From Candidatus Yanofskybacteria bacterium RIFCSPLOWO2_02_FULL_41_13 (GTDB lineage Bacteria; Patescibacteriota; Minisyncoccia; 2-02-FULL-40-12; GWA2-44-9): a DNA stretch of 64,000 bases. Location: positions 14,808 through 78,807 of the forward strand of contig MGKQ01000001.1 in assembly GCA_001795735.1 (NCBI GenBank), given 5' to 3'. Below are positions 3,568 to 54,305 of the stretch, one piece after another (positions within the stretch are counted from its first letter, which is position 1; the number at the start of each line of letters is the position of its first letter). Both the position numbers and the translations under genes were made by a program. Below the pieces are notes generated by a model. The model saw only the letters and a program-made list of their open reading frames with translations. It made no database searches and was not told the origin of the DNA.

Positions 3568-4569
3568 ATGATCATAACCCGAACACCCTTTAGAATATCT
3601 TTCTTCGGCGGAGGAACTGACTATCCAACCTGGTACAAAGAAAACGGCGGATCGGTTCTGTCTGCCGCCATAAACAAGTATTGTTACATCACGTGCCGGT
3701 ATTTACCGCCATTTTTTAAATATAAACACAGAATCGTATACAGCCAGATTGAATCAGTAGATAAAATAGACCACATAGATCATCCGTCTGTCAGGGAGAC
3801 GATACGCTTTCTTAATATTGATAAAGGGCTGGAGATACACCACGACGGAGATTTGCCGGCTATGTCCGGGCTGGGATCTAGCTCTTCTTTTACTGTCGGC
3901 CTGATAAATGCTATAAGCGCATTAAATGGCACGCTAAAAACCAAGAGAGAGGTGGCCATGAATGCAATTCATATTGAGCAAAATATGATAAAGGAGAATG
4001 TCGGTTCTCAGGATCAGACAGCAGCGGCTTTTGGCGGACTAAACCGGATAGATTTTGGAGGGGCTAAGGAAATATCGATCAAGCCTCTAGTATTGAGCCC
4101 CAATCGGCTTGAGTCTCTTCAAGACCACCTAATGCTATTCTTTACCGGCTTATCACGAGATGCTTCAAAGATCGCAAAAGAACAGGTAACAAACATTAAA
4201 AATAGGGGCACTGAATTGAAATTGATGCACAGATTAGTTGATGAAGGAGAGGCAATTTTAGCAAACAGCAGAAAGGGATTAGATGAATTTGGAAAACTTC
4301 TGAATGAGGGGTGGAAAATAAAAAAATCATTGTCGTCAAAAATAACAAATCCCTATATTGATGACGTATATAAAGCCGGAATACGAGCCGGAGCGTTAGG
4401 GGGCAAACTGCTTGGTGCGGGAGGGGGAGGATTTATTCTATTCTTTGCAAAACCAGAGACGCATGAAAAAATAAAAAGCAAATTAAAAAATTTGCTTTTT
4501 GTCCCTTTCCGGTTTGACCATCTTGGCAGCCGGATTATATATACCGGGAATGACTTTGAAAAGTTCTAG
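3568..4569 (+). CDS. GHMP-family sugar kinase (HddA/heptose-7-phosphate-kinase-like or other sugar-1-kinase)
   Basis: GHMP motif GDLPAMSGLGSSSSFTVGL and C-terminal LLGAGGGGFILFFA. Confidence 0.75.
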   Translation: MIITRTPFRISFFGGGTDYPTWYKENGGSVLSAAINKYCYITCRYLPPFFKYKHRIVYSQIESVDKIDHIDHPSVRETIRFLNIDKGLEIHHDGDLPAMSGLGSSSSFTVGLINAISALNGTLKTKREVAMNAIHIEQNMIKENVGSQDQTAAAFGGLNRIDFGGAKEISIKPLVLSPNRLESLQDHLMLFFTGLSRDASKIAKEQVTNIKNRGTELKLMHRLVDEGEAILANSRKGLDEFGKLLNEGWKIKKSLSSKITNPYIDDVYKAGIRAGALGGKLLGAGGGGFILFFAKPETHEKIKSKLKNLLFVPFRFDHLGSRIIYTGNDFEKF

Positions 4570-8568: not shown

Positions 8569-9528
8569 TTGCCTAAACTGCTATTGGACCTTTACAAAAA
8601 GATGTATTTGATTCGAGAAGCCGAAGCAGAAATACGCAGAGAATACAATAATGACGAAATGAAAACTCCAATGCATATGTCGTTGGGCAGTGAAGCTATT
8701 GTTGTGGGTGTATGCCATGCTCTACCTGAAAGTAATCACGTATACGGGACATACCGGAGCCACGCACTATATCTTGCTTTGACCGGCGAAACAGATAAAT
8801 TCTTTGCTGAAATGTACGGTAAGGCAACGGGCTGCGCCAAGGGTAAGGCCGGTTCGATGCACTTGTCATCACCGGAGCATGGCCTAATGGCCACATCGGC
8901 TGTTGTGGCGACAACTATCCCTTGGGCTTTGGGAGATGCTTTTCAGGCAGTTTATAGCAACATTAACCGAATTACCGCTGTTTTTTTTGGAGATGGCGCG
9001 ACCGATGAAGGCGTATTTTGGGAAACTTTAAATGCGGCCTGTCTAATGAAGCTGCCGATTCTATTTGTCTGTGAAGATAACGGACTGGCCATTCATACAT
9101 CAACTGAACAACGCCGAGGATACGATTCTTTAACGGATATAGTTAAGAAATTCAGATGCAACGTTTTGGAGGGTACCGGCAACGACGTCGTAGAAGTATA
9201 TGCTATGGCGAATAAGACAATTAATTATATTATAACAGATAAAAAACCGTCCTTCCTTTGTTTGAAATATTACAGATATCTTGAGCACGTCGGCGTCAAT
9301 GAAGATTTTAACGCCGGTTATAGGTCTAGAGAAGAGTTATTAAAATGGCTGGAGAAAGATCCGCTATACATACACCGCTTAAAGCTTACAGATCTCGGAT
9401 ACACTGACGAGGTGGAGGAGATTGAAAAACAAATCCGTGAACAGGTTCTTGCAAGCAGAATTAAAGCTCAGGAAGCGCCTTTTCCGGATAAAGATGAATT
9501 GATGAAGGGGGTTTTTTATGGAGAATAA
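8569..9528 (+). CDS. ThDP-dependent dehydrogenase E1 component, alpha subunit (PDH/acetoin-dehydrogenase E1-alpha-like)
   Basis: E1-alpha ThDP-binding region GDGATDEGVFWE..N. TTG start with GGGAGG SD. Confidence 0.8.
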   Translation: MPKLLLDLYKKMYLIREAEAEIRREYNNDEMKTPMHMSLGSEAIVVGVCHALPESNHVYGTYRSHALYLALTGETDKFFAEMYGKATGCAKGKAGSMHLSSPEHGLMATSAVVATTIPWALGDAFQAVYSNINRITAVFFGDGATDEGVFWETLNAACLMKLPILFVCEDNGLAIHTSTEQRRGYDSLTDIVKKFRCNVLEGTGNDVVEVYAMANKTINYIITDKKPSFLCLKYYRYLEHVGVNEDFNAGYRSREELLKWLEKDPLYIHRLKLTDLGYTDEVEEIEKQIREQVLASRIKAQEAPFPDKDELMKGVFYGE

Positions 9529-10567
9529 GAGGATCATTTCTTACTGCAAAGCGATCAACGAAGCGCTTTATCAGGAGATGGAGAGAGATGAGAGGATATT
9601 CGTTTACGGTTTGGACGTTGCGGATCACAAACGCACATTCGGCTCCGGTGAGGGCTTATTGGAACGTTTTGGGCCCAAGCGATATTTTTCCACCCCTCTT
9701 TCAGAAGATGCCATGATGGGTTTGGGCGGCGGCGGCGCTGTAGCCGGTTTACGCCCCATCAACGTACACATAAGAGTTGACTTTCTTTTGCTGTCCATGA
9801 ATCAGTTAGCAAACATGATTGCCCCCATACGCTACGGATCGGATGGAAAACTTTCTGTTCCATTGGTAATCCGCGCAATTATTGGGCGGGGCTGGGGCCA
9901 AGGATTCCAACATTCAAAAACTCTGCAAAGTGTTTTTGCCCACATTCCCGGATTAAAGGTAGTTATGCCAACTACGCCTTATGACGCTAAGGGATTGCTT
10001 ATATCCGCTATTCGCGACAATAATCCGGTTCTTATTCTGGAACATCGCCTACTTTACTGGCAGAAAGGCCGGGTTCCCGAAGAACCATTTACCGTTCCTC
10101 TCGGCCAAGCCAACGTTCTTAGACCGGGAACCGATATCACTATCGCCGCTACATCGTGGATGAACGTTGAAGCTTATACCGCCGCACGGATAATGGAAAA
10201 GCGCAGTGTAGATGTAGAGATAATTGACATCCGCTCAATCGCTCCGCTTGATGATAAGCTTGTAACTGAATCCGCCATTAAGACAGGTCATTTGATTGTA
10301 GCCGACTACGACTGGATTAATTGCGGCCTCTCAGCTGAAATTACCGCCAGAGTATATGAAAAATGTATGCATCAATTAAAATCACCGATTACAAGAATCG
10401 GTTTTGCGCCAACACCATGCCCAACCACGCGCCCGCTTGAAAATTTGTTCTATCCTGGCGCAGAAACGCTAGTTAGAGTTATCGAACAGAAACTTGGCCT
10501 TGAGAGAGCCGATCTATCTGAAGAAGAATTTTTTAGTTATGAGAATAAATTCCGCGGTCCGTTTTGA
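9518..10567 (+). CDS. ThDP-dependent dehydrogenase E1 component, beta subunit (transketolase-like)
   Basis: E1-beta-like sequence. SD AAGGGGG precedes the ATG. Overlaps the alpha gene. Confidence 0.8.
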   Translation: MENKRIISYCKAINEALYQEMERDERIFVYGLDVADHKRTFGSGEGLLERFGPKRYFSTPLSEDAMMGLGGGGAVAGLRPINVHIRVDFLLLSMNQLANMIAPIRYGSDGKLSVPLVIRAIIGRGWGQGFQHSKTLQSVFAHIPGLKVVMPTTPYDAKGLLISAIRDNNPVLILEHRLLYWQKGRVPEEPFTVPLGQANVLRPGTDITIAATSWMNVEAYTAARIMEKRSVDVEIIDIRSIAPLDDKLVTESAIKTGHLIVADYDWINCGLSAEITARVYEKCMHQLKSPITRIGFAPTPCPTTRPLENLFYPGAETLVRVIEQKLGLERADLSEEEFFSYENKFRGPF

Positions 10568-10674: not shown

Positions 10675-10959
10675 ATGAATCCCGAACGAGACAGCAAAAG
10701 CATATTTTATACATACGTACTAAGAAATGAGAATGGCCGTCTATATACAGGTTTTACTTATGACCTACGGAAACGCCTCAATGAACACAATGACAAAAAA
10801 TCAACATATACAAAATATCGAGGTCAATATGAGCTCATTTACTATGAAATGTGTCGAGATGAGAATGATGCTCGTCAAAGAAAAAAGTATCTTAAATCAG
10901 GCATGGGCAAACGCTACCTGAAAAACAGGTTGAGGCGTTTCCTGTCTCGTACGGGATGA
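10675..10959 (+). CDS. GIY-YIG domain small protein
   Basis: IFYTYVLRN...LYTGFTYDLRKRLNEHN. Confidence 0.75.
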   Translation: MNPERDSKSIFYTYVLRNENGRLYTGFTYDLRKRLNEHNDKKSTYTKYRGQYELIYYEMCRDENDARQRKKYLKSGMGKRYLKNRLRRFLSRTG

Positions 10960-11705
10960 AATTAATATCTTTAAATATCTGGGGTGGAAAGTTATATGAA
11001 CCGCTCATGGAATTTATCAGTGAAGCCAAAAAAGATACTGATATTTTTTGTTTTCAAGAACTCTTCTTCGGTAATAGGCCCGGATATGATGTAGGCGGAG
11101 CCAGAGCCAATATTGCCAAAGAGCTTGAAAGCGCCTTGCTGGAGTTCAATATTTATCCGTACTTTGCACCAAAAAACTCGTTCTTTATGGGAGAGATGGC
11201 TCTGTCGACAATAGGTCAAGCAATTTTCGTAAGAAAGAACTTGTCAGTTACCGATAAGGGAGGTTTTTATACTCATCATCCCGTTACAAACCATAGCGGG
11301 ATTTTTCAATACATTAAAATTAGGACTGATAAAGATGAATTTATTATTGGCAATATTCACGGCCTATGGCTGCCGACCGGAAAGCTAGATAACCCGGAGC
11401 GCATTAAACAATCCGAAATGATAATAGACCTTTATGCCACTCACAAGGGCAAGAAAATAATATGTGGCGACTTCAATCTCCGGCCTGAAACAGAAAGCAT
11501 CGCCATATTCAATAAAGATTTTAAAAACTTGATCAAAGATTTTGGGATAAACTCAACGCGCAGTTCTTTCTATAAAGATGCCGAGAGATATAAAGACTTC
11601 ATATCCGATTATGTTTTCGTTTCTAGGGATGTAAATGTAATGAATTTTAAGACGATAGATGCCTTCGTATCCGACCATCTACCGATTATGCTTGAGTTCT
11701 CGTAA
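10956..11705 (+). CDS. endonuclease/exonuclease/phosphatase (EEP) family protein
   Basis: N-terminal LNIWGG...DIFCFQE and C-terminal GDFN...SDHLPIMLEF are EEP signatures. ATGA overlap with the GIY-YIG ORF. Confidence 0.7.
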   Translation: MKLISLNIWGGKLYEPLMEFISEAKKDTDIFCFQELFFGNRPGYDVGGARANIAKELESALLEFNIYPYFAPKNSFFMGEMALSTIGQAIFVRKNLSVTDKGGFYTHHPVTNHSGIFQYIKIRTDKDEFIIGNIHGLWLPTGKLDNPERIKQSEMIIDLYATHKGKKIICGDFNLRPETESIAIFNKDFKNLIKDFGINSTRSSFYKDAERYKDFISDYVFVSRDVNVMNFKTIDAFVSDHLPIMLEFS

Positions 11706-11786
11706 AAGAACGAAACTGGGCCATATTGACTGGAGTATAAAAATATAACACTATTTAACCCAAAGTCCTTTAAAAAGAGGTGCTTA

Positions 11787-12989
11787 GTGAATTATAAATA
11801 TCCTCTTGCCACAGACACCGTGACCAAAGAAGACCTCCGTGCTTTGGCTGTCTGGCTGTTGAGTGATCCTGCGCCCCGCCTAACCATGGGGCCGTTAGTA
11901 AAAGAATACGAGCAAAGATGGTGCGACTGGCTTGGCAGAAATTTTGCTATCTCTTGCAGTACGGGTTCAGATGCCAATGAGTTAATGTATTACACCCTGC
12001 TCCGCTCAGGCCGGCTAAAGAACAAGAAAATTATCGTTCCAAGTGCCGCTTGGGTTACCAGTATTTCTCCGGCAATACATTACGGTTTTGAGCCGATTAT
12101 GTGCGATGCCGATTATGACACATGGGCTCTTAACAAGAGACATCTCAGAGCCTTACTCGAAGAGCACAATCCTTCTACGGTTTTTTTAGTTCAAGTACTT
12201 GGCATCCCTCACGATATGGATGACCTGATGAAACTAAAAAAGGAATACGGATTCTTCCTTCTTGAAGATACCTGTGCCGCAATCGGTTCCTCATATCATG
12301 GCCAAAAATTGGGAACATTCGGTGACATGTCTAGCATCTCAACCTATTACGGCCACCAGACACCGACCGTTGAGGGCGGAGTAGTATTTACAGATGATAA
12401 GGATCTCAATGATCTGCTTTTGATGTTAAGAAGTCATGGCTGGGTAGCACATGTTGATCCGGAGAAAAGAACCGAAATTTTAAAGAAATACGAAATCGAA
12501 GATATCGGAACCCATTTTCACTTCATTGAGCCCGGCTTTAATTCACGATTTACTGATATGCAGGCATTCCTCGGCCTGCGCCAGCTTGACCGAATAGAGT
12601 GGAACATCGAAAAAAGATCTTCTAACCACCGGCTCTACAAACAGATACTTGGTCACAGCGGTTTGTTTATGACCCAGGTTTATGACAAGGAGTCAGTTGT
12701 ATGCAGTATCCACTTTTGCGCCCTGGCCTTAAATTATGAGGAAAGAAATATAATTATTAAAGAGCTTCAGAACAACGGCATAGAAACCAGGCCGTTTACT
12801 TCGGGTAATCAGGGCCTTCAGCCATATTGGTTCAGAGAATATGGAAAGTTCTCCGCCTCCGTAGCCAATAAGCTTTATCACTGCGGGTTCTTCCTACCCA
12901 ATCACCCCTATCTTAAAACGGAAGACATCGAGTACATCTGTTCGGTAGCGATCAAGACAGCATTGGAATACAGAGAGGAGAATGGATAA
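11787..12989 (+). CDS. DegT/DnrJ/EryC1-family PLP/PMP enzyme with His at the canonical Lys position (sugar 3-dehydratase-like, E1/ColD-type)
   Basis: Family pattern D.CAAIG...SISTYYGHQTPTVEGG with H replacing the Schiff-base K. GTG start with GAGGTG SD. Confidence 0.7.
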   Translation: MNYKYPLATDTVTKEDLRALAVWLLSDPAPRLTMGPLVKEYEQRWCDWLGRNFAISCSTGSDANELMYYTLLRSGRLKNKKIIVPSAAWVTSISPAIHYGFEPIMCDADYDTWALNKRHLRALLEEHNPSTVFLVQVLGIPHDMDDLMKLKKEYGFFLLEDTCAAIGSSYHGQKLGTFGDMSSISTYYGHQTPTVEGGVVFTDDKDLNDLLLMLRSHGWVAHVDPEKRTEILKKYEIEDIGTHFHFIEPGFNSRFTDMQAFLGLRQLDRIEWNIEKRSSNHRLYKQILGHSGLFMTQVYDKESVVCSIHFCALALNYEERNIIIKELQNNGIETRPFTSGNQGLQPYWFREYGKFSASVANKLYHCGFFLPNHPYLKTEDIEYICSVAIKTALEYREENG

Positions 12990-13927
12990 TGCCCAGAGTT
13001 CTTGTCACCGGAGGCGCCGGGTATATCGGTTCGGTTCTGGTACCAATGCTTTTGAATGCCGGCCATGAGGTCATCGTACTTGATAACTTCATGTACAATC
13101 AGACTTCTCTACTTGACTGTTGTCACAACAAAAATCTGCTGATTATCAGAGGCGATTCCAGAGATGAAAAACGGATAGAAGATACTTTTAAAAACTACTG
13201 GCCTATAAGATATGTCATTCCCCTGGCTTGCATCGTCGGAGCTCCTGCTTGCGACAAAGACCCATGGTCTGCCAGAACGACCAACCTGGATGCGGTTAGA
13301 ATGATCGCCGACCGATGGAGACCAAGAATAATATTCCCCAACACTAACAGCGGTTACGGTATCGGCCAAGAAAGAAACTATTGCACTGAAGAGTCTTCGT
13401 TAAATCCAGTTTCTCTCTATGGCAAACTAAAAGTTGAAGCAGAAGAGGTATTATTAAAAAATGGAAATTCTGTGGTTCTCCGCCTGGCAACTGTTTTTGG
13501 AATCAGTCCGCGCATGCGTCTGGATTTGCTAGTTAATGACTTCGTTTACAGAGCCGTAAATGACCGCTATGTAGTACTCTTTGAGGGTAATTTTAAAAGA
13601 AACTACATCCACGTCCGAGATGTTGCAAGAGCATTTATGCATTGCATGGAAAACTTTAAGACGATGGATGGCCAAGTCTACAATGTCGGATTAAGTGATG
13701 CTAACCTTTCAAAATTGGAACTATGCGAGGAGATAAAGAAGCAAGTACCTGGCTTTTATTTTGCCGAAGCTAAAATAGGCGAAGATCCTGATAAACGCAA
13801 CTATATCGTCAGCAACGAAAAGATTGAGAAAACCGGATTTAAACCGGAGGTTTCTCTGCAAGAAGGAATTGCTGAGTTAATCAGAGGTTATCCGGTTATA
13901 AAAAATAACCATTTCTCAAATATTTAA
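12989..13927 (+). CDS. NAD-dependent epimerase/dehydratase (extended SDR)
   Basis: VLVTGGAGYIGS. Confidence 0.8.
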   Translation: MPRVLVTGGAGYIGSVLVPMLLNAGHEVIVLDNFMYNQTSLLDCCHNKNLLIIRGDSRDEKRIEDTFKNYWPIRYVIPLACIVGAPACDKDPWSARTTNLDAVRMIADRWRPRIIFPNTNSGYGIGQERNYCTEESSLNPVSLYGKLKVEAEEVLLKNGNSVVLRLATVFGISPRMRLDLLVNDFVYRAVNDRYVVLFEGNFKRNYIHVRDVARAFMHCMENFKTMDGQVYNVGLSDANLSKLELCEEIKKQVPGFYFAEAKIGEDPDKRNYIVSNEKIEKTGFKPEVSLQEGIAELIRGYPVIKNNHFSNI

Positions 13928-13932
13928 ATTTA

Positions 13933-13957
13933 AAAGGAGCCATATAGCTCCTTTTTT
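13933..13957. terminator. bidirectional rho-independent terminator between convergent genes
   Basis: AAAGGAGC / GCTCCTTT stem with TTTTTT. Confidence 0.6.
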
Positions 13958-13991
13958 GTTTACCTAAAACTTATTGCCCCGTAAGTCTGAT

Positions 13992-16067
13992 TTATACCGG
14001 TTCATTGGGCCGTATTGTATAAAGATAAGCACCGTTACGAAAACACCACCAGACGACTTTTCTCAGCCATTCTTCCAAAGAATCCCAGGATTCAGTTGTG
14101 CGATCAATGCAATACTCTGCTGGGCCTTCTTCGAGTATGGCCGGTTGTCCGGTAAAAATGTTTCTATAGAATTCCCAGACCCGGTAATTTAGTTTAATGG
14201 TGAGGTCGTGATCCTGGAACGGAAGCTTAAGAAGCGCCCGGTTAAGCCGAATTGCATCGTCAAGTATTATATCATTGACCGGGGCTGATCGGACGTTGCG
14301 CATAAGCCGAAGTGCCCGTTGAGCCTCTTCGTAAAAATCGGATAGCCGACCATTAACATATAATTTTATCATGGCGTATGCATCGGCCGGCCACCAAATA
14401 TCGAGCCATTCCCCGGAGTGACTGTACTCCTCTTGGCCCTGAGTTATTTTTGTCGCTTCGCTTAATAAGAATTGTCTTATGCTTGCTAGTACCGGGAATT
14501 CTTCTTCGGGAAGAAAGATTTTATGATTGCTGACGTCACGGTAATTTCCTTCTGAGAAAAGTTCTATCAGCTCCCGATAGCTTATGCCGCCAATCTGGTT
14601 CATGACTATTAAAGGAATCTGAAACATTTTATCAAAATGCAGAAAGGCAGACATCCAAGTGAACACCCTGGTACGAATCCAATCTTCCTTAGGCATAGTT
14701 TTTGTGGCAACTACCGCTTTCTGCCATTCATCTATGCCATCGGGAGTTTCTTCTTTCTTACCGTGAACGGTAAGTATTTTAATCGATACTGTTTTCATTC
14801 CGTACTCTTCCATATATTCAGGATTAGCCGCTTCGGCATTAGGCAAGATAGTAAATATATTAAAATGAATACGATTATGCTGGCCACCGGCAATAGTATT
14901 TGAGATGCCGTCAGCAAATGAGTCATATGTCTCATTGGGCATAGCCATAATCATATCAGTCACTATCATCGTACCCTTAGCGGCCATCTCATTCTGACGT
15001 GCCTGATAGGCTTCTACCTTCATATTGTCGCGGCGAATTGCCCTGAGAGTTTCCGCATTAGTTGACTGCAGTGACATAAGACCATCGGTCTTAAGTCCCG
15101 AGCGATCTAATATCGCTAACGCTTCAAATGAGTGGTCTTTCGGATTTTTTGCGTTTTGGGTTGCTATTGCCTTTGGAAATCCGTACTGCTCACGGATTTT
15201 CGCAAATTGTTCGGCAATCTTGACGTCCCGTTCTAAGATTCCAAAATTAGCATCCCCGATAAACGTATAGCCTATCTGATGCCGGCCGATCCATTCAATA
15301 TCACCACAGACCTGCTCCAAGGGAAACTTGGCCAGCTTATCTTCCGTCGCACCGCCCCAGTCACAAAATGTACATGCATATGGACAGCCTCGATTAGTCT
15401 CGAGAAGCACAATCCACTTTTGTTCCGGAAAAGATTTAATCAAATCGTCGAAAATCCCGGATTGGTAAGGTGACGGTACTACACCGAGATCAACAATACG
15501 AGGACGTCTAGGATTATGCACAAAGGTTCCGTCTTTACGTAAGTAACTTATCGATGGAATGTCTTCCCTCTCATAATTGCCGTCGAGCAACCGCTCAAGG
15601 ATATCTAGAAATACTGCTTCGCCCTCACCGTGACAGGCAATATCAATGAAGGGATAGTCCCGATGAAATGTTTCAGTAAAACTCTTGCGTAAACGTGTCA
15701 GCTGAATAAGACCGGCTGATTTTTTTTCACGGCCGAATCTTTTTAGTCCGTCTGGCACATGAGGACCACCGAAAACAATAATAATTTCCGGTTTTTGGCG
15801 CTTAAGCTCTCGGGCAATAGCACATGATAATTCAAAATTCCAAACGTAAACACTGAAAGCAACGATTTGAGCATCTATTAATTTAGCTACTGCAGATTCA
15901 ACGGTAAGCCGCTTATAGACCATCTGCAGAAATTCAAAACTGTTAGAATCGCGGGCGTACTTCTGGGCATAGGCCTTCAAATAACCGATAGATGGGGGCA
16001 GATAGCACTGACCATCCGAAAATTCGTTGCCGATCTGAGCCAAACCTATGGTTAGCTTTTTCATCAT
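13992..16067 (-). CDS. B12-binding-domain radical SAM protein (large, 691 aa; paralog of 18968..21133)
   Basis: N-terminal cobalamin-binding-like region, CPYACTFCDWG CxxxCxxC motif, conserved C-terminal roughly 250-aa extension shared with the paralog. Confidence 0.8.
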   Translation of the reverse strand: MMKKLTIGLAQIGNEFSDGQCYLPPSIGYLKAYAQKYARDSNSFEFLQMVYKRLTVESAVAKLIDAQIVAFSVYVWNFELSCAIARELKRQKPEIIIVFGGPHVPDGLKRFGREKKSAGLIQLTRLRKSFTETFHRDYPFIDIACHGEGEAVFLDILERLLDGNYEREDIPSISYLRKDGTFVHNPRRPRIVDLGVVPSPYQSGIFDDLIKSFPEQKWIVLLETNRGCPYACTFCDWGGATEDKLAKFPLEQVCGDIEWIGRHQIGYTFIGDANFGILERDVKIAEQFAKIREQYGFPKAIATQNAKNPKDHSFEALAILDRSGLKTDGLMSLQSTNAETLRAIRRDNMKVEAYQARQNEMAAKGTMIVTDMIMAMPNETYDSFADGISNTIAGGQHNRIHFNIFTILPNAEAANPEYMEEYGMKTVSIKILTVHGKKEETPDGIDEWQKAVVATKTMPKEDWIRTRVFTWMSAFLHFDKMFQIPLIVMNQIGGISYRELIELFSEGNYRDVSNHKIFLPEEEFPVLASIRQFLLSEATKITQGQEEYSHSGEWLDIWWPADAYAMIKLYVNGRLSDFYEEAQRALRLMRNVRSAPVNDIILDDAIRLNRALLKLPFQDHDLTIKLNYRVWEFYRNIFTGQPAILEEGPAEYCIDRTTESWDSLEEWLRKVVWWCFRNGAYLYTIRPNEPV

Positions 16068-16166: not shown

Positions 16167-16700
16167 CTAGCTGTCTCTTCTTGAGAGGATAGGATTTCCG
16201 GTTGGCCAGGTGATATTGAATCGTGGATCGTTCCATTTAACGGTGAACTGATTCTTACCATCGGTATAATATTCCGATTGGTTATAGTGGAACACTGCCC
16301 AGTCGCTCAATATTAAGTGGCCGTTGGCATGCATGGGGGGAATAAGTATCTGAAGACAATTACGGGGAGTCAGGGTAAAGGCTTCCCATTTTCCAAAGGA
16401 CGGAGAAGTCTCATTGTAATTCATGACTACCAGGTATAGCTCTCCGTAGAGGCAGGAAATGAGCTTCCAGGTTTTAGGATCTCCATGCAAACCACGAAGA
16501 ACGTTTTTATGTGAAAGGGAGTAATCTTGTTCAACGAATTCAATTTTAATTCCGGCATCGAAGTATTCCTGTTTTTTATATACCTCGCCACAAACTCCAC
16601 GATAGTCTTCAAAAAAATAACGCTCTATCCGTAAAACTTCGGGTAAAGTTGTCTGCGAAACCTTAATCATATAGATACTATAGCATATAATTAAAACCAA
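16167..16700 (-). CDS. dTDP-4-dehydrorhamnose-3,5-epimerase-like cupin (RmlC family sugar 3,5-epimerase)
   Basis: FEDYRGV...VLRGLHGDP...KLISCLYGELYLVV matches the RmlC pattern. True start may be the internal MIKV (16670). Confidence 0.7.
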   Translation of the reverse strand: MVLIICYSIYMIKVSQTTLPEVLRIERYFFEDYRGVCGEVYKKQEYFDAGIKIEFVEQDYSLSHKNVLRGLHGDPKTWKLISCLYGELYLVVMNYNETSPSFGKWEAFTLTPRNCLQILIPPMHANGHLILSDWAVFHYNQSEYYTDGKNQFTVKWNDPRFNITWPTGNPILSRRDS

Positions 16701-16784
16701 ACTGTCAGTTGACTAAACATCATTCTCGGTATACTATTGATCATTGTTCATTCAAATTCAAACAAAGGTCTGGAGGCGGGTCTA

Positions 16785-17738
16785 ATGACAAAGAAAAGAG
16801 TTTTGGTTTGCGGAGCTAGCGGATTTATCGGAAGAAATATATTTGAACGGCTATCGGAACGCAAAGATATTGAACTTATAGGAACTTATCACAATAATCG
16901 TTTTAGCTCAGACCCGCGATTAGTTAAGGTTGACCTGACTGATAAACATGAAGTTAATGAATTACTAAAAGGCGTTGATATCTTAATTCAAGCCGCAGCA
17001 GTCACTTCCGGTTCAAAGCAAATAAAGGAGAGGCCCTTCATTCATATCACCGACAATGGAATTATGAATCTTCTTATGTATCAGGCATCCTTTGATCAGC
17101 GTATCGGAATGGTAATTTTCTTCAGTTGTTCAGTTATGTATCCCGGCGGCGACAAGCCGGCTAAAGAATCGGATCTTAATCTTAATGACGGCATGCATCC
17201 TACATATTTCGGGGCCGGTTGGACAAAAATCTATTTAGAAAAAATGTGTGACTTTTACTCGCGCCTGGGCCGGACTAAATTTCTTGTCATCCGACACTCA
17301 AACATATACGGTCCGTACGATAAATACGACCTTGAAAAATCTCATATGTTCGGCGCCAATGTTACTAAAGTTATGACGGCTAAAGATGGCGATGAAATTA
17401 CGGTCTGGGGAACGGGCCAGGAAAAACGAGATCTGGTATATGTGTCCGACCTGGTTGATTTTGTCGAGCTGGCTATGGCAAAGCAAGATCGGGATAGCTT
17501 TGACTTAGTTAATGTCGGCTGTGGTGAGGCCTTAAGCGTAAATGATATAATCTCAAAAATAATTACTGCTTCGGGTAAGAATCTATCTTTAGCACATAAC
17601 GTAACCGGACCGACCATTCCAGTTAGCATTACGCTTGATGCAACGAGAGCAAAAGATATATATGGCTGGCAGCCCAAAGTTTCACTTGATACCGGTATCG
17701 CCAGAACTATTGATTGGTATCGTAAAAATATTCTATAA
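16785..17738 (+). CDS. NAD-dependent epimerase/dehydratase (extended SDR; GDP-fucose-synthase/4-reductase-like)
   Basis: VLVCGASGFIGRN. Start set at the ATG preceded by GGAGG SD (the ORF-track start is 48 nt upstream). Confidence 0.75.
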   Translation: MTKKRVLVCGASGFIGRNIFERLSERKDIELIGTYHNNRFSSDPRLVKVDLTDKHEVNELLKGVDILIQAAAVTSGSKQIKERPFIHITDNGIMNLLMYQASFDQRIGMVIFFSCSVMYPGGDKPAKESDLNLNDGMHPTYFGAGWTKIYLEKMCDFYSRLGRTKFLVIRHSNIYGPYDKYDLEKSHMFGANVTKVMTAKDGDEITVWGTGQEKRDLVYVSDLVDFVELAMAKQDRDSFDLVNVGCGEALSVNDIISKIITASGKNLSLAHNVTGPTIPVSITLDATRAKDIYGWQPKVSLDTGIARTIDWYRKNIL

Positions 17739-24843: not shown

Positions 24844-25830
24844 ATGCTCGATAATAAGACAATTCTGATAACCGGGGGGACGGGTTCATTCGGCAAAAAT
24901 TTTGCCAAATTTTTACTCAAAAGTAGCGGGCTCAAAAAGCTCATTATTTTCAGCCGAGATGAGTTCAAGCAATACGAGATGCAGAAAGAAATAAGCGATC
25001 CGCGTATACGTTTTTTTATCGGTGATGTTCGGGATTTGCCACGTCTTCAGCGTGCCTTCCATGGTGTTGATATCGTTATCCATGCCGCCGCGCTTAAACA
25101 AGTTCCTACGCTGGAGTACAATCCCTTTGAAGCAGTAAAGACGAATATAATCGGGTCGCAGAATGTAATTGATGCTTCAATTGACCAGAGTGTTTCAAAA
25201 ACACTGCTCATTTCAAGCGACAAGGCTGTTCAGCCAATCAACCTTTATGGGGCGACTAAATTGGCCGCCGAAAAGCTTTTTGTGGCCGCAAACTCTTATA
25301 CATCGCTCACAAAACGTAGTATCTTCAGTGCGGTACGCTATGGTAATGTAATGGGAAGCCGAGGCAGTATCGTTGAGGCGCTTCTTAAAAAACCTGCCGC
25401 AGAAAAGGTATTTATAACCCATCCGGACATGACTCGTTTTTGGCTTACCCTGTCAGAGAGCTTCCACCTTGTTTTATTTGCTATTAAGCATATGGGTGGC
25501 GGAGAAATAATCGTGCCTAAAATTCCCAGCATGAAGATAACCGAACTTTTTGATGCCCTTGCTCCGCGGGCTAAAAAAGTAATCACCGGCATACGACCGG
25601 GAGAAAAAATTCATGAAACGCTTTTAACTGAGCATGAGGCGCGCAATACCATATTAGTAGGGAATCATTTCGTTATTCTTCCTGAATTTACTTCAAAACC
25701 AAAATTTTTCGAACATTACTATACGCTGGGAAGCAAGCTTGATAACCATACTCCCTTCGCCAGTGATAACAACACAGTATGGCTAACCAAAAAAGAACTA
25801 AAATCAAAAATAAAACCGACGCTACTCTAA
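24844..25830 (+). CDS. pseB: UDP-N-acetylglucosamine 4,6-dehydratase (PseB/FlaA1-like short CapD family)
   Basis: KTILITGGTGSFGKNF and overall PseB/FlaA1-type extended SDR of about 330 aa. Confidence 0.75.
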   Translation: MLDNKTILITGGTGSFGKNFAKFLLKSSGLKKLIIFSRDEFKQYEMQKEISDPRIRFFIGDVRDLPRLQRAFHGVDIVIHAAALKQVPTLEYNPFEAVKTNIIGSQNVIDASIDQSVSKTLLISSDKAVQPINLYGATKLAAEKLFVAANSYTSLTKRSIFSAVRYGNVMGSRGSIVEALLKKPAAEKVFITHPDMTRFWLTLSESFHLVLFAIKHMGGGEIIVPKIPSMKITELFDALAPRAKKVITGIRPGEKIHETLLTEHEARNTILVGNHFVILPEFTSKPKFFEHYYTLGSKLDNHTPFASDNNTVWLTKKELKSKIKPTLL

Positions 25831-26939
25831 AACGAAGTCCGATCCCCTATGGTCGACAGAGGATAGGCGCCGATGACATCAGAACAGTTATCAGTGTGCT
25901 CAAATCAGATTGGCTCACTCAGGGCCCTATGGTGAAAAGGTTTGAAGAATCATTAGCTCGTTACTGCGGAGCAAAATTTGCTGTTGCCGTATCCAGCGGT
26001 ACCGCCGCCCTTCATCTGGCGTATTTAGCCGCCGGACTTCAACCCGATGATGAAGTAATAACGACACCGAATACATTCGTTGCCACATCCAATATGCTTT
26101 TAGCCGTAAAAGCTAGGCCAGTTTTTTGCGATATCCGGCTGGATAATTACAACCTTGATGAAACTAAAATAGAATCGCTGATTACCTCCAAAACAAAAGC
26201 TATCGTACCGGTCCACTTCGCCGGACATCCCTGTGAAATGGATAGTATTCTGAGTCTGGCAAAAAAACATAATCTTCTCGTGATTGAAGATGCCTGTCAT
26301 GCATTGGGGGCATCGTATAAAAATACTAAAGTTGGTGGTATCGGAGATATGACTGTTTTTAGCTTTCATCCGGTCAAATCTATTACCACCGGCGAGGGAG
26401 GAGCAATACTAACAAACAATAAAAACTTTTATGAAAAATTATTATTATTAAGGTCTCACGGCATAACAAAGGATAAAAATGGATTCAATGTTATGGCCGA
26501 GCTGGGACATAATTACCGAGTTACGGATATTCAAGCAGCGCTTGGCTTAAGTCAGCTTAAGAAGCTAGATGGATTTATTAAAAAAAGAAGTGAGCTTATG
26601 TCCGGATATTATAGAGAGTTAAAAGATGTGAAGAATATCATACTCCCGAGAATAACTGAAAACATAATTTCCGCCGGTCATATTTTTATTATAAGAGTCA
26701 AAGACCGGGCAAAAAGGCTAAAATTGATGGAATTCCTAAAAAATAATGGCATCGGGGTTAACTTTCACTATCCGGCCGTTTACTCTCATCCTTATTACAG
26801 ACAGAATGGATATGACGGACTAACACTAGACAACGAGGAGATATATAGCAGTTCGTGCGTCACTCTCCCCCTCTACCCGAACTTAAAACTAGAAAGTATA
26901 GAGTATATCTGCGATAAAATAAAAACTTTTTTCAAATGA
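25779..26939 (+). CDS. pseC: DegT-family sugar aminotransferase with canonical Lys (PseC-like UDP-4-amino-4,6-dideoxy-sugar transaminase)
   Basis: IPYGRQ.I...D...WLTQG N-terminus and FSFHPVKSITTGEGG. Exact start uncertain (overlaps the pseB 3' end). Confidence 0.75.
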   Translation: MANQKRTKIKNKTDATLKRSPIPYGRQRIGADDIRTVISVLKSDWLTQGPMVKRFEESLARYCGAKFAVAVSSGTAALHLAYLAAGLQPDDEVITTPNTFVATSNMLLAVKARPVFCDIRLDNYNLDETKIESLITSKTKAIVPVHFAGHPCEMDSILSLAKKHNLLVIEDACHALGASYKNTKVGGIGDMTVFSFHPVKSITTGEGGAILTNNKNFYEKLLLLRSHGITKDKNGFNVMAELGHNYRVTDIQAALGLSQLKKLDGFIKKRSELMSGYYRELKDVKNIILPRITENIISAGHIFIIRVKDRAKRLKLMEFLKNNGIGVNFHYPAVYSHPYYRQNGYDGLTLDNEEIYSSSCVTLPLYPNLKLESIEYICDKIKTFFK

Positions 26940-53084: not shown

Positions 53085-54305
53085 TTAAACTTTTCGTAAA
53101 TAATCCGTTACGACATCCATAACGTAGCCTAAGTGTTCTTGGCGCAATCCGTGATGACAACCGATAAGAAGTCCCTGAGCCATAATCATATCAGAATTAA
53201 CCAAATCACCATAAACACGGTGGTTAATATTCTTATAGGGCGGATGTCGCAGAATGTTTCCCGCAAACAGCACCCTCGTCTGAATGTTTTTTCCTTCCAT
53301 ATAGAGCATCAATTCGGTTCGTTTTATCGATGAATCTTCGCGGATAGTAAACGGGAATGCCAGCCAGCGAACATCACTTTTAGTGACGGCCTGACGAGGT
53401 AATACAAAGTGTTCCGGAAAGCCGGCAAAAAAATCGTATAGAACCTTGAAATTTCTCTTACGAATCTGATCGAACTCGCTCAAGCGTGATAGCTGGACAA
53501 GTCCAAACGCAGCTTGAGGATCCAGGGCCTTGAAATTAAAACCAAGCTCACGAAAAACAAACTTACCATCATACTGAATATCATTCAAAAAGAAATTAAA
53601 GCGAATATCGGGATGCTCATCATAATATTCCGCCGAGGCTCTACCCCAGTCTCTAACGATCTGGGTAAAATCAGCATCGGCCTTATTCTTGAACATTACC
53701 ATCCCCCCGCCGCCCATTGCTGTAATTATGTGAGAGGCATAGAAACTGGTCGTACTGGCATCTGCATATTTACCTGTCGGCTCGCCTCTAATCGTACCGC
53801 CGATCGAATCACAGCTGTCCTCTATCAGCACCAAATTATGATCGTCGGCCATCCGACGCAATTCAGCCATATCATTAAGATTGCCTATCAGGTGGGGTAT
53901 CATCAAACCAACCGTATCGGAATCAATCGCCCCCTCAACAAGATTCAAATCCACATTATATGTATCCGGCTCAACATCAACAAAAACCGGGATGAGTCCC
54001 GATTCAATCAGGGGATTAACAGTTGTGGCAAAAGTGCAAGCCGGAGTTATTACCTTACCGCCCCGAACCTTGCCCAAGAGCGCTCTTATGGCAAGTAGAT
54101 TTGCCGAAGAACCTGAATTGACGAATAGCGCAAAGTTCTGGCCAAAAATTTCAGCCACCTGTTTTTCAAACGTTTTGGTATATCTGCCGATGCCCAGCCA
54201 ATCGTTGTTTAAGCACTCCAGAACGGAGGCTATCTCTCTCTCTCCGAAGATTGCTCGACTGTAATAAACCTTGTCTTTTCCGGGTACAAATGGATGGTTT
54301 TCCAA
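53085..54305 (-). CDS. DegT/DnrJ/EryC1-family PLP/PMP enzyme with His at the canonical Lys position (second 3-dehydratase-like protein)
   Basis: TTSFYASHIITAMGGGG, where aminotransferases have SF..K...GEGG. Confidence 0.7.
   Translation of the reverse strand: MENHPFVPGKDKVYYSRAIFGEREIASVLECLNNDWLGIGRYTKTFEKQVAEIFGQNFALFVNSGSSANLLAIRALLGKVRGGKVITPACTFATTVNPLIESGLIPVFVDVEPDTYNVDLNLVEGAIDSDTVGLMIPHLIGNLNDMAELRRMADDHNLVLIEDSCDSIGGTIRGEPTGKYADASTTSFYASHIITAMGGGGMVMFKNKADADFTQIVRDWGRASAEYYDEHPDIRFNFFLNDIQYDGKFVFRELGFNFKALDPQAAFGLVQLSRLSEFDQIRKRNFKVLYDFFAGFPEHFVLPRQAVTKSDVRWLAFPFTIREDSSIKRTELMLYMEGKNIQTRVLFAGNILRHPPYKNINHRVYGDLVNSDMIMAQGLLIGCHHGLRQEHLGYVMDVVTDYLRKV

What the first reader, a model, noticed from the sequence alone, without database searches (positions are those of the whole stretch)
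11787..12989. Two DegT-family proteins carry His in place of the catalytic Lys (E1/ColD-type sugar 3-dehydratases); a third in the cluster keeps the Lys
In the DegT/DnrJ/EryC1 family the PLP Schiff-base lysine sits in the motif SF(H/Y)..K....GEGG. The PseC-like protein (25779..26939) has FSFHPVKSITTGEGG. The protein at 11787..12989 has SISTYYGHQTPTVEGG and the one at 53085..54305 has TTSFYASHIITAMGGGG, both with His at that position. This Lys-to-His replacement is the known hallmark of the PMP-dependent 3-dehydratases: E1 (DdhC/AscC) of CDP-3,6-dideoxyhexose pathways and ColD of GDP-colitose. Two such enzymes in one locus implies two separate 3,6-dideoxy (or 3-deoxy) sugar branches, feeding the ThDP branch-adding enzymes nearby.
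Basis: partly seen in the sequence, partly recalled or inferred. Interest (0 to 1): 0.6.

Follow-up and report, generated by a model that had tools for sequence, protein, structure and literature searches.

The report
Two histidine-type sugar 3-dehydratases, no iron-sulfur
Two of the three DegT-family enzymes in this candidate-phyla-radiation glycan island do carry histidine where the cofactor-binding lysine normally sits, which marks them as sugar 3-deoxygenases that need no iron-sulfur reductase. Each sits in a gene cassette, conserved across phyla, that probably feeds thiamine-dependent enzymes building branched sugars.

Summary
P1 (11787-12989) has His190 and P2 (53085-54305, minus strand) has His192 in the column of ColD His188, E1 His220 and the PseC lysine (Lys200 of 25779-26939). 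The His is invariant in 240 of 240 homologues.

In a neighbour-joining tree, P1 groups with ColD, P2 groups with E1, and all lysine-type proteins fall outside.

New points:
1. Neither protein nor any of the 240 homologues has E1's C251/C253/C261 [2Fe-2S] cysteines. No E3-like reductase lies nearby. ColD-type chemistry (enamine hydrolysis, PMP regenerated from glutamate) is therefore the likely mechanism for both.
2. P1 is not a ColD orthologue (28% identity). It overlaps (TAATG) a 56-58% identical homologue of C. jejuni Cj1427, the GDP-heptose C4-dehydrogenase. This pairing holds in 76 of 80 loci across phyla, with heptose-kinase-like and heptose-epimerase-like genes alongside. The predicted product is a GDP-3-deoxy-4-keto-heptose, so far reported only from in vitro enzyme mixing in the one paper read here.
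3. P2's family sits with RmlB-like 4,6-dehydratases.
4. Both cassettes usually include a thiamine-dependent enzyme of one of three interchangeable classes.

Verdict: a known enzyme kind in new variants. Substrates and chemistry are inferred, not shown.

The parts
11787..12989 (+). P1: His-type DegT protein (400 aa), sister lineage to ColD. Predicted PMP-dependent C3-dehydratase of a GDP-4-keto-heptose.
   Evidence: Pfam PF01041 at 1.7e-67. Best solved relative is ColD 2gms at 1.7e-47, but only 28% identity. The NJ tree gives P1 family + ColD bootstrap 80. 204 species genomes carry the family.
12354..12356 (+). Codon of P1 His190 (CAC), in the position of the Schiff-base lysine.
   Evidence: Invariant in 120/120 homologues.
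12989..13927 (+). SDR (312 aa) whose ATG overlaps the P1 stop (TAATG). Cj1427-like GDP-heptose C4-dehydrogenase that would make the 4-keto substrate of P1.
   Evidence: Full-length match to PDB 6vo6/6vo8 at E 4.4e-115 and 56-58% identity. The entry titles name Cj1427. Present in 76/80 P1-family loci and 45/45 loci with full flanks.
3568..4569 (+). GHMP kinase, heptose-kinase-like (HddA/WcbL type).
   Evidence: Best PDB matches are 3k85, 4usk (WcbL) and 4n3o at 1e-33 to 1e-42. NCBIfam HddA scores 150 bits, below its cut-off of 600. Present in 34/45 full-flank P1-family loci at 55-72% identity.
16167..16700 (-). RmlC-fold cupin epimerase, closest to GDP-D-glycero-4-keto-D-lyxo-heptose 3,5-epimerases.
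   Evidence: Best PDB matches are 8dco and 8db5 at 1e-35, ahead of dTDP RmlC 1dzr at 9e-29.
16737..17738 (+). GDP-fucose-synthase-like SDR, a candidate C4-reductase.
   Evidence: NCBIfam GDP-L-fucose synthase scores 134 bits, below cut-off. Best PDB matches are GDP-fucose synthetases at about 1e-24.
8569..10567 (+). PDH-E1 alpha/beta-like ThDP enzyme pair (8569-9528 and 9518-10567), a candidate acetyl-branch donor.
   Evidence: Pfam E1_dh, Transket_pyr and Transketolase_C. TIGR03182 scores 249 bits, below cut-off. Present in 22/45 full-flank P1-family loci. This enzyme class is known as a sugar brancher (PMC12247030).
5454..7221 (-). Split transketolase (C-terminal part 5454-6461, N-terminal part 6388-7221), a candidate hydroxyacetyl-branch donor.
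   Evidence: Pfam and NCBIfam transketolase at 255 bits. Split transketolases lie next to P1- and P2-family genes in many loci.
13992..16067 (-). B12-binding radical-SAM enzyme of the KedN5 family, a candidate C-methyltransferase.
   Evidence: NF033712 scores 254 bits. B12-rSAM genes occur in 23/45 full-flank P1-family loci.
53085..54305 (-). P2: His-type DegT protein (406 aa), sister lineage to E1 but without the [2Fe-2S] cysteines. Predicted reductase-independent NDP-4-keto-6-deoxyhexose C3-dehydratase.
   Evidence: Best solved relative is E1 3bcx at 6.5e-95, 43% identity. NCBIfam RfbH scores 384 bits against a cut-off of 423. The AF2 model has pLDDT 94, and Foldseek's top hit is E1 at TM 0.91. 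The Cys motif is absent.
53730..53732 (-). Codon of P2 His192 (CAC), in the position of the Schiff-base lysine.
   Evidence: Invariant in 120/120 homologues.
54438..56294 (+). ALS/YerE-like ThDP enzyme (618 aa), divergent from P2 across 132 bp. Candidate acyl-branch adder.
   Evidence: Pfam TPP_enzyme_N/M/C. Acetolactate synthase models score 432 bits, below cut-off. The same enzyme type lies near P2 homologues in 7/29 loci, and a split transketolase in 14/29. For the YerE precedent see PMC9306805.
56294..57298 (+). SDR (334 aa) overlapping the ThDP gene's stop (TAATG). In the YerF position, a candidate side-chain or C4 reductase.
   Evidence: Pfam Epimerase; junction sequence.
25779..26939 (+). 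P3: true PseC-type aminotransferase that keeps the lysine (Lys200, codon 26376-26378).
   Evidence: TIGR03588 scores 447.9 against a cut-off of 423.5. A PseB-like gene lies directly upstream. The lysine column is shown.

Best explanation
P1 and P2 are PMP-dependent nucleotide-sugar C3-dehydratases. The histidine that replaces the Schiff-base lysine acts as the acid/base that expels the 3-OH from the PMP-ketimine of a 4-keto sugar.

Neither has E1's [2Fe-2S] site, so both most likely finish the cycle as ColD does. The 3,4-ene intermediate is released, the enamine hydrolyses to the 3-deoxy-4-keto sugar plus ammonia, and PMP is regenerated from L-glutamate, giving 2-oxoglutarate. No E3-type reductase is needed.

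The two enzymes belong to two different cassettes.

P1 cassette. P1 is translationally coupled to a Cj1427-type C4-dehydrogenase. Heptose-kinase-like, GDP-heptose-epimerase-like and GDP-fucose-synthase-like genes lie nearby. The likely route is GDP-D-glycero-D-manno-heptose, then GDP-4-keto-heptose, then (by P1) GDP-3-deoxy-4-keto-heptose with O6 retained.

P2 cassette. In related genomes P2 sits directly after an RmlB-like 4,6-dehydratase. It most likely converts an NDP-4-keto-6-deoxyhexose to the 3,6-dideoxy-4-keto sugar, as in the yersiniose route.

In both cassettes the 3-deoxy-4-keto product is the probable ketone acceptor for a ThDP enzyme (PDH-E1-like, split transketolase or YerE-like) that adds a carbon branch at C4, followed by SDR reduction and methylations.

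What is shown: the residue identities, the absence of the cysteines, the phylogeny and the synteny. What is inferred: the substrates, the products, glutamate dependence and the link to the ThDP step.
For: His at the catalytic column:
- It aligns with ColD His188 and E1 His220.
- It is invariant in 240/240 homologues.

Phylogeny:
- The His-type proteins form one clade (bootstrap 84).
- P1 family + ColD has bootstrap 80 and P2 family + E1 has 87.

Cofactor-site columns shared with ColD and E1:
- GS.AN loop; Asp of the 'ED' motif; Ser five residues before the His.
- Trp 29 residues (P1) or 28 residues (P2) after the His; Arg335/344; Asn341/350.

No iron-sulfur route:
- E1 C251/C253/C257/C261 fall in a deleted loop in P1, P2 and all 240 homologues.
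- Only the C193 equivalent is kept, and ColD and PseC have it too.
- Only 3 cysteines (P2 family) or 4 (P1 family) are conserved at 80% or more.
- The review PMC8987622 states that E1 and SpnQ need the 4-Cys cluster plus a reductase, whereas ColD lacks the cluster and uses hydrolysis plus glutamate.
- No Fer2/FNR-type gene appears in the window's Pfam map or in the 10 kb beyond each end.
- No ORF with a plant-type ferredoxin motif plus FNR motifs was found among 2,912 ORF segments of 176 loci.

P1 cassette:
- The downstream SDR is 56-58% identical over its full length to Cj1427, with a TAATG overlap.
- That SDR is present in 76/80 loci from Patescibacteria, Elusimicrobia, Nitrospira, Deltaproteobacteria, Acidobacteria and Nanoarchaeota.
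- Heptose-kinase-like GHMP kinase.
- GDP-heptose 3,5-epimerase-like cupin.
- GDP-fucose-synthase-like SDRs.
- Cj1427 plus a ColD-type C3-dehydratase make GDP-D-glycero-3-deoxy-4-keto-heptose in vitro (PMC10680097).

P2 cassette:
- An RmlB-like gene (TIGR01181 at 310-317 bits), an SDR and a split transketolase or YerE-like gene lie around P2 homologues.
- YerE uses the E1/E3 product as its acceptor, and YerF then reduces the side chain (PMC9306805).
- All three ThDP classes are documented or proposed sugar branchers (PMC12247030).
Against: - No activity data exist for either family.
- P1 is only 28% identical to ColD, and P2 only 43% to E1. Substrate transfer by homology is therefore weak.
- The window holds no recognisable sugar-1-phosphate nucleotidyltransferase, GmhA, or 4,6-dehydratase.
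- The GHMP kinase is far below the HddA cut-off (150 vs 600 bits).
- P2 has a one-residue insertion and Gly instead of Glu after the His (SH..TAMGGGG vs HHIT-MGEGG). The consequence of this is unknown.
- SpnQ, a His-type enzyme, can transaminate when no reductase is present, so a His does not strictly exclude amino transfer.
- Gene neighbourhood does not prove that the ThDP enzymes use the dehydratase products.
- A reductase could be encoded elsewhere in the genome.
Confidence: 0.6

Rival explanations
1. Classical E1/E3-type radical deoxygenation. P2, and perhaps P1, receives electrons from a reductase or ferredoxin encoded elsewhere and reduces the 3,4-glucoseen-PMP intermediate.
For: P2's closest characterised relative is E1 (6.5e-95; TM 0.91). 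JGI pipelines name homologues 'CDP-6-deoxy-D-xylo-4-hexulose-3-dehydrase' or 'E1'. Only part of the genome was seen.
Against: Three of E1's four cluster cysteines (C251, C253, C261) are missing because the loop is deleted, in P2, in P1 and in all 240 homologues. Too few cysteines are conserved to build another 4-Cys site. No E3/FNR-like gene occurs in 176 loci or in the window's Pfam map.
Confidence: 0.06
2. P1 and/or P2 act as 4-aminotransferases, the activity SpnQ shows without a reductase, and make 4-amino-4-deoxy sugars rather than 3-deoxy sugars.
For: SpnQ, also His-type, transaminates with PLP and glutamate when no reductase is present (review PMC8987622). The fold and cofactor site are those of sugar aminotransferases.
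Against: According to the same review, ColD and E1 show no such activity under similar conditions. The His is invariant over hundreds of sequences, and both families branch inside the dehydratase clade. The cassettes nearly always hold a ThDP enzyme, which needs a ketone acceptor. The window already has a Lys-type PseC.
Confidence: 0.1
3. P1 is an orthodox ColD that acts on GDP-4-keto-6-deoxy-D-mannose made by a GDP-mannose 4,6-dehydratase encoded elsewhere, giving a colitose-like 3,6-dideoxyhexose. The Cj1427-like neighbour serves another step.
For: ColD is the best solved match and the tree sister. GDP-fucose-synthase-like SDRs, which resemble ColC, lie nearby. A Nudix protein with weak similarity to GDP-mannose mannosyl hydrolase lies at 52546-53001.
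Against: Identity to ColD is 28%, whereas true ColD-type enzymes share 62-67% (PMC10440746). No GMD-like gene scores near its cut-off in the window. The strict P1/Cj1427-like pairing (76/80 loci, overlapping codons) and the heptose-type kinase and epimerase point to a 4-keto-heptose made by oxidation, not by 4,6-dehydration.
Confidence: 0.12
4. The His variants are catalytically dead or have a non-enzymatic role.
For: Loss of the Schiff-base lysine inactivates ordinary PLP enzymes.
Against: Both families are strongly conserved across many phyla, with an intact cofactor-site motif set. The same substitution is the working residue in ColD, E1 and SpnQ.
Confidence: 0.02

Closest known systems
ColD (GDP-4-keto-6-deoxy-D-mannose 3-dehydratase, E. 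coli O55; PDB 2gms) and the C. jejuni HS:5/HS:11 C3-dehydratases
   Same: DegT fold. His in place of the Schiff-base Lys. No iron-sulfur cluster. Probable GDP-sugar context. Tree sister of the P1 family. The expected mechanism is enamine hydrolysis with glutamate-driven PMP regeneration.
   Different: P1 is only 28% identical, whereas ColD-type enzymes share 62-67% with each other. Its fixed partner is a Cj1427-type C4-dehydrogenase rather than a 4,6-dehydratase, so O6 is probably retained. The residue before the His is Gly, not Ser, and ColD Glu162 corresponds to Ala164 in P1.
E1 (CDP-6-deoxy-L-threo-D-glycero-4-hexulose 3-dehydrase, DdhC/AscC/RfbH; PDB 3bcx) with its reductase E3
   Same: P2 shares 43% identity, the same fold (TM 0.91) and His at position 220. 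It lies next to a YerE-like ThDP enzyme plus an SDR, as in the yersiniose pathway E1/E3, then YerE, then YerF.
   Different: P2 and its whole family lack C251, C253 and C261 of the [2Fe-2S] motif, and no E3 was found. P2 scores below the RfbH cut-off. It has an insertion and a Glu-to-Gly change after the His. The associated 4,6-dehydratase in related loci is RmlB-like, not CDP-glucose-type.
SpnQ (dTDP-4-keto-2,6-dideoxyglucose 3-dehydratase, spinosyn pathway)
   Same: His-type DegT 3-dehydratase.
   Different: SpnQ has the 4-Cys [2Fe-2S] motif and uses general ferredoxin or flavodoxin reductases. P1 and P2 lack the motif. No SpnQ sequence was available here for a direct comparison.
Cj1427 plus C3-dehydratase, an in vitro combination from the Raushel laboratory (PMC10680097)
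   Same: The same two enzyme types that are fused into an operon here: a C4-dehydrogenase recycled by 2-oxoglutarate, and a PLP/glutamate-dependent C3-dehydratase. Together they make GDP-D-glycero-3-deoxy-4-keto-heptose.
   Different: That combination was artificial, mixing enzymes from serotypes HS:2 and HS:5, and the paper calls the products novel. Here the pair is a natural and widespread gene couple, followed by ThDP, radical-SAM and SDR genes.
PseC (UDP-4-amino-4,6-dideoxy-N-acetyl-beta-L-altrosamine transaminase)
   Same: P3 (25779-26939) is a member. It scores above the curated cut-off, keeps the lysine and follows a PseB-like gene.
   Different: P1 and P2 score far below the PseC cut-off (177 and 182 bits against 423.5) and carry His in place of the lysine.

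Membership tests
PMP-dependent nucleotide-sugar 3-dehydratases (ColD/E1/SpnQ class) | DegT/DnrJ/EryC1 (fold-type I aminotransferase) fold | tested here: met
   PF01041 at 1.7e-67 (P1) and 4e-84 (P2). The P2 model has pLDDT 94, and its top Foldseek hits are E1 and ColD.
PMP-dependent nucleotide-sugar 3-dehydratases (ColD/E1/SpnQ class) | Histidine in place of the Schiff-base lysine | tested here: met
   P1 His190 and P2 His192 align with ColD His188, E1 His220 and PseC Lys200. Invariant in 240/240 homologues.
PMP-dependent nucleotide-sugar 3-dehydratases (ColD/E1/SpnQ class) | Branches with characterised dehydratases rather than with Lys-type aminotransferases | tested here: met
   NJ tree with 100 bootstraps: His-type clade 84; P1 family + ColD 80; P2 family + E1 87. 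The sample was small, with 8 Lys-type rows (7 distinct sequences).
PMP-dependent nucleotide-sugar 3-dehydratases (ColD/E1/SpnQ class) | Catalyses C3 deoxygenation of an NDP-4-keto sugar | not testable with these tools
   Needs an enzyme assay.
E1 (RfbH/DdhC/AscC) type | Four-cysteine [2Fe-2S] motif (C193, C251, C253, C261 in Yersinia E1; ligand numbering is from my memory of Agnihotri et al. 2004, and the review confirms a 4-Cys motif) | tested here: not met
   The loop holding C251/C253/C257/C261 is deleted in P1, P2 and all 240 homologues. Only the C193 equivalent remains, and ColD and PseC also have it.
E1 (RfbH/DdhC/AscC) type | Dedicated reductase partner E3 (ferredoxin-NAD(P) reductase family with a plant-type 2Fe-2S domain) | tested here: not met
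   No such Pfam domains in the window or in the 10 kb beyond each end. The motif scan of 176 loci found none. The rest of the genome was not seen.
E1 (RfbH/DdhC/AscC) type | Passes the curated RfbH model NF011936 (cut-off 423 bits) | tested here: not met
   P2 scores 384.3 bits and P1 scores 169.8 bits.
ColD type (GDP-4-keto-6-deoxy-D-mannose 3-dehydratase) | No iron-sulfur cluster, with the catalytic His | tested here: met
ColD type (GDP-4-keto-6-deoxy-D-mannose 3-dehydratase) | Orthologue-level similarity to ColD (characterised members share 62-67% identity; PMC10440746) | tested here: not met
   P1-ColD 28% and P2-ColD 29%.
ColD type (GDP-4-keto-6-deoxy-D-mannose 3-dehydratase) | Works after a GDP-mannose 4,6-dehydratase and before a ColC-type synthase | tested here: not met
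   No SDR in the window comes near the gmd cut-off. P1's fixed partner is Cj1427-like. GDP-fucose-synthase-like SDRs are present but score well below cut-off.
ColD type (GDP-4-keto-6-deoxy-D-mannose 3-dehydratase) | PMP regenerated by L-glutamate, with ammonia released | not testable with these tools
   Inferred from the absence of a cluster and a reductase.
Cj1427-type GDP-heptose C4-dehydrogenase (for the SDR at 12989-13927) | Full-length, high similarity to Cj1427 | tested here: met
   E 4.4e-115. Residues 3-311 align to 4-311 at 56-58% identity. The next-best PDB hit is only 7e-21.
Cj1427-type GDP-heptose C4-dehydrogenase (for the SDR at 12989-13927) | Ping-pong oxidation of GDP-D-glycero-D-manno-heptose, with bound NADH re-oxidised by 2-oxoglutarate | not testable with these tools
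   This property of Cj1427 is described in PMC10680097. It was not assayed here.
PseC (for P3, 25779-26939) | Passes TIGR03588, keeps the Schiff-base Lys and is adjacent to PseB | tested here: met
   447.9 bits against a cut-off of 423.5. Lys200. The upstream gene has PF02719 at 6.5e-92.

The most novel reading that the evidence does not exclude
The P1/Cj1427-like pair is a natural, phylum-spanning pathway to GDP-3-deoxy-4-keto-heptoses, sugars so far reported only from in vitro enzyme mixing in the one paper read here. The two enzymes may be cofactor-coupled: P1 turns glutamate into 2-oxoglutarate to reload PMP, and the dehydrogenase consumes exactly that 2-oxoglutarate to re-oxidise its bound NADH. 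The keto product is then C-branched by whichever ThDP module the genome carries (PDH-E1-like, split transketolase or YerE-like), giving unknown branched eight- or nine-carbon sugars on the surfaces of CPR bacteria, Nitrospira and Elusimicrobia. In parallel, P2 would represent an E1 lineage that does without the iron-sulfur/E3 radical route.
Probability: 0.35. Interest if true: 0.65.

Novelty: new variant of a known kind. Interest (0 to 1): 0.5.

Why it matters
The histidine hallmark itself is textbook, and pipelines already label relatives as 'E1'. That label is mechanistically misleading here, because neither family can bind E1's cluster and no reductase is nearby.

The work defines two large uncharacterised families:
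- P1 family: at least 204 species genomes.
- P2 family: at least 590 metagenome loci.

Each family has a fixed partner: a Cj1427-like C4-dehydrogenase for P1 and an RmlB-like 4,6-dehydratase for P2. Both associate recurrently with three interchangeable ThDP carboligase types.

This gives a testable route to natural 3-deoxy-heptoses and to new C-branched sugars. It also supplies new ketone-accepting ThDP biocatalysts and reductase-free 3-deoxygenases for glyco-engineering.

Finally, a small-genome CPR bacterium devotes more than 64 kb to exotic glycan chemistry. That bears on how these episymbionts present their cell surface.

Tried and rejected
Papers not held. The primary papers on E1 (PMC2782820), SpnQ (PMC2515268), ColD (PMC2242600) and Cj1427 (PMC7509852, PMC7500870, and the DOI) could not be read. 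Mechanistic statements therefore rest on the review PMC8987622 and on PMC10680097 and PMC10440746. The numbering of E1's cluster ligands is from my memory, although the cysteines themselves are visible in the 3bcx alignment.

Searches that failed or found nothing:
- A text search for '6VO6' found nothing relevant.
- Two literature queries failed on syntax.
- A literature search for iron-sulfur-free E1-like dehydratases found nothing.

The Cj1427-like SDR model. The single-sequence AlphaFold model was poor (pLDDT 42). Its Foldseek run was used only to read the PDB entry titles that identify 6vo6 and 6vo8 as Cj1427. Its structural scores are meaningless.

An alternative cluster site in P1. I considered whether the P1 family's four conserved cysteines (57, 106, 163, 306) could form a different cluster. 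Two of them (106 and 163) are shared with the Lys-type PseC. By fold-type-I topology they should lie on distant strands, which is inference.

Missing upstream enzymes. I looked for a 4,6-dehydratase, a nucleotidyltransferase or GmhA in the window and found none convincing.

The solved entry 9wvy ('putative NDP-4-keto-6-deoxyglucose-3-dehydratase') was not inspected residue by residue.
Full report
**Observation.** The three ORFs exist as described: P1 at 11787-12989 (+, 400 aa), P2 at 53085-54305 (-, 406 aa) and P3 at 25779-26939 (+, 386 aa), each with the quoted peptide. A blastp sweep of all ORFs of at least 300 aa finds no other DegT-family gene in the window. All three match Pfam PF01041 strongly.

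P3 passes the curated PseC model (447.9 against 423.5 bits) and follows a PseB-like gene.

HMMER alignments against solved structures place P1's His on ColD His188. The H188N and H188K mutant chains (3b8x, 2r0t) mark that exact column. P2's His falls on E1 His220, marked by the H220K chain 3bb8.

A joint MAFFT alignment puts PseC Lys200, P1 His190, P2 His192, ColD His188 and E1 His220 in one column. The codons are given. The His is invariant in 120/120 homologues of each protein.

**Source.** The closest relatives carry Candidatus Yanofskybacteria and other Patescibacteria labels. The right-hand end of the window is on NCBI contig MGJR01000027.1 of assembly GCA_001794375.1.

The window is one continuous glycan-biosynthesis island containing:
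- a Pse/nonulosonic-acid module;
- many methyltransferases and glycosyltransferases;
- five or more radical-SAM genes;
- three different ThDP enzymes.

The island continues beyond both ends of the window.

**Relation to known 3-dehydratases.** In a neighbour-joining tree with 100 bootstraps, the His-type proteins form one clade (support 84). Within it, the P1 family pairs with ColD (80) and the P2 family pairs with E1 (87). All eight Lys-type rows (seven distinct sequences) fall outside.

Identities are modest: P1-ColD 28%, P1-E1 27%, P1-P2 23%, P2-E1 43%. By comparison, the characterised ColD-type enzymes of E. coli, Yersinia and C. jejuni share 62-67% (PMC10440746). P1 is therefore a separate lineage, not a ColD orthologue.

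P2 falls below the curated RfbH cut-off (384 against 423 bits). Its AlphaFold model (pLDDT 94) superposes best on E1 (TM 0.91).

Cofactor-site columns are shared by both families with ColD and E1: the GS.AN loop, the Asp of 'ED', the Ser five residues before the His, and a Trp, an Arg and an Asn further on.

**The iron-sulfur question.** According to the review PMC8987622:
- E1 and SpnQ hold a four-cysteine [2Fe-2S] cluster. They need E3 or a ferredoxin/reductase pair to reduce the 3,4-ene intermediate.
- ColD has no cluster. It hydrolyses the enamine and reloads PMP from glutamate.

In the E1 chain, the cysteines C251, C253, C257 and C261 sit in the loop [21 protein letters not shown]. That loop is shortened and cysteine-free in P2 (RDWGRASAEYYDEHPDIRF), in P1 and in all 240 homologues. 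Only the C193 equivalent survives, and ColD and PseC have it as well.

Only three cysteines (P2 family) or four (P1 family) are conserved at 80% or more.

No ferredoxin-reductase-type gene appears in the Pfam map of the window or in the 10 kb beyond each end. A motif scan of 2,912 ORF segments in 176 loci found none.

I conclude that both enzymes most likely use ColD-type chemistry. This is an inference from absence. The rest of the genome was not seen.

**P1's cassette.** The gene after P1 (12989-13927) overlaps its stop codon (TAATG). It is 56-58% identical over its full length to PDB 6vo6/6vo8 (E 4.4e-115), with the next hit at only 7e-21. The entry titles identify these as Cj1427 of C. jejuni.

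[quoted passage not shown] It recycles its tightly bound NADH with 2-oxoglutarate (PMC10680097).

Other neighbours point the same way:
- a GHMP kinase whose best solved relatives are heptose kinases;
- an RmlC-fold cupin whose best matches are GDP-D-glycero-4-keto-D-lyxo-heptose 3,5-epimerases;
- GDP-fucose-synthase-like SDRs.

A scan of species-representative genomes found 204 genomes with a P1-family gene. They span Patescibacteria, Elusimicrobia, Nitrospira (including the complete Ca. N. defluvii genome), Deltaproteobacteria, Acidobacteria, Nanoarchaeota and others.

| Gene near the P1 homologue | All 80 loci kept | 45 loci with full flanks |
|---|---|---|
| Cj1427-like SDR | 76 | 45 |
| Heptose-kinase-like GHMP kinase | 51 | 34 |
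| Any ThDP enzyme | 67 | 42 |
| B12-binding radical-SAM | 38 | 23 |

Among the 45 full-flank loci, 22 carry a PDH-E1-like enzyme, 10 a split transketolase and 15 a YerE-like enzyme. Some loci carry more than one class.

The Raushel laboratory obtained GDP-D-glycero-3-deoxy-4-keto-heptose by mixing Cj1427 with a ColD-type C3-dehydratase from another serotype, and described such sugars as novel. The gene pair found here suggests that nature already runs that route.

A possible extra, purely inferred, is cofactor coupling. P1's PMP reload yields one 2-oxoglutarate per turnover, and the dehydrogenase consumes one.

**P2's cassette.** In the window, P2 is divergent, across 132 bp, from an ALS/YerE-like ThDP enzyme. 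That enzyme is in turn overlapped (TAATG) by an SDR. This is the layout of the yersiniose logic, in which YerE adds an acyl branch to the E1/E3 product and YerF reduces it (PMC9306805).

At least 590 metagenome loci encode the family. In the 29 loci of at least 12 kb:
- 19 hold an RmlB-like SDR, often directly upstream. The two examples scanned, from L007 and L009, score 310-317 bits on TIGR01181, below its cut-off of 365.
- 21 hold a 306-aa-type SDR.
- 21 hold a ThDP enzyme (split transketolase in 14, YerE-like in 7, PDH-E1-like in 1, with one locus holding two).
- Only one holds a Cj1427-like gene.

In L096 (72% identical P2 homologue, otherwise syntenic with 47164-54305), an SDR plus split transketolase replaces the YerE-like plus SDR pair. 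The ThDP module is therefore exchangeable.

The window itself has no convincing 4,6-dehydratase or nucleotidyltransferase, so P2's substrate here is less certain.

**ThDP branchers.** The review PMC12247030 lists exactly these three enzyme classes as known or proposed sugar C-branchers: YerE-like decarboxylases, alpha-keto acid dehydrogenase E1 alpha/beta pairs and transketolases. All three occur in this window.

**Rivals.**
- An E1/E3-type radical route is unlikely without the cysteines.
- A SpnQ-like aminotransferase role is possible but fits poorly with the ThDP association and the invariant His.
- An orthodox colitose role for P1 fits poorly with its fixed Cj1427-like partner.
- A dead enzyme is excluded by the strong conservation.

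1. No E3 is needed or present.
2. P1 probably makes a 3-deoxy-heptose rather than a 3,6-dideoxyhexose.
3. P2 is a cluster-free sister lineage of E1.

The enzyme kind is known. The two families and their cassettes are uncharacterised variants. All substrate and product assignments remain predictions.

Noticed in passing
5454-7221 (-), 8569-10567 (+), 54438-56294 (+): All three classes of ThDP enzymes that the literature lists as sugar C-branchers occur in one window: a split transketolase, a PDH-E1 alpha/beta-like pair and an ALS/YerE-like enzyme. In the related locus L096 the YerE-like module next to the P2 homologue is replaced by a split transketolase, which looks like module swapping.
   Followed up: partly
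40135-43977 (-): A trio of DUF4956, VTC-domain and CotH-kinase/beta-helix genes sits in the middle of the glycan island. The same trio lies next to a P2 homologue in L165 (about 11635-15100). Its function here is unknown.
   Followed up: no
2904-3460 and about 10675-11705: Small mobile-element-like ORFs lie inside the cluster: an HTH/excisionase-like ORF of 81 aa (2904-3149), a GIY-YIG ORF of 84 aa (3206-3460), a second GIY-YIG ORF just before 10956, and an endonuclease/exonuclease/phosphatase-family gene (10956-11705) directly upstream of P1.
   Followed up: no
13992-16067 (-), 18968-21133 (+), 21180-22478 (-), 35451-36362 (+), 44136-45710 (-): Five radical-SAM genes, two with B12-binding domains (one of them a KedN5-family C-methyltransferase at 254 bits). 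This is notable in a small-genome CPR lineage not expected to make cobalamin. More such genes lie just upstream of the window (L001).
   Followed up: no
24844-37259 (+): A pseudaminic/nonulosonic-acid module: PseB, PseC, a NeuB fused to a CMP-transferase (27547-29388), a second NeuB, a HisH/HisF-like pair, an ATP-grasp enzyme, a SPASM radical-SAM enzyme and an MptE-like (Maf-type?) protein. Another NeuB plus CMP-transferase pair lies upstream of the window (L001 7672-9343).
   Followed up: no
53085-54305 (-), residues 187-202: The P2 family has the motif SFYASH(I/N)(I/M)TA(M/A/G)GGGGM. Compared with E1 and ColD, it has a one-residue insertion and Gly where they have the Glu of the usual G/M-E-G-G. 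This is conserved across the family and unexplained.
   Followed up: partly
L039 14834-16060 and L049 14493-15716: In two Elusimicrobia genomes a P2-like gene (39% identity) with a YerF-like SDR lies 5-6 kb downstream of the P1 homologue. Co-occurrence of the two His-type families is therefore not unique to this window.
   Followed up: partly
49108-50760 (-) and 51591-52541 (-): Two ORFs with no Pfam match (550 aa and 316 aa) are conserved next to the P2 homologue in L096 (53% and 64% identity). They are unknown members of the P2 neighbourhood.
   Followed up: no
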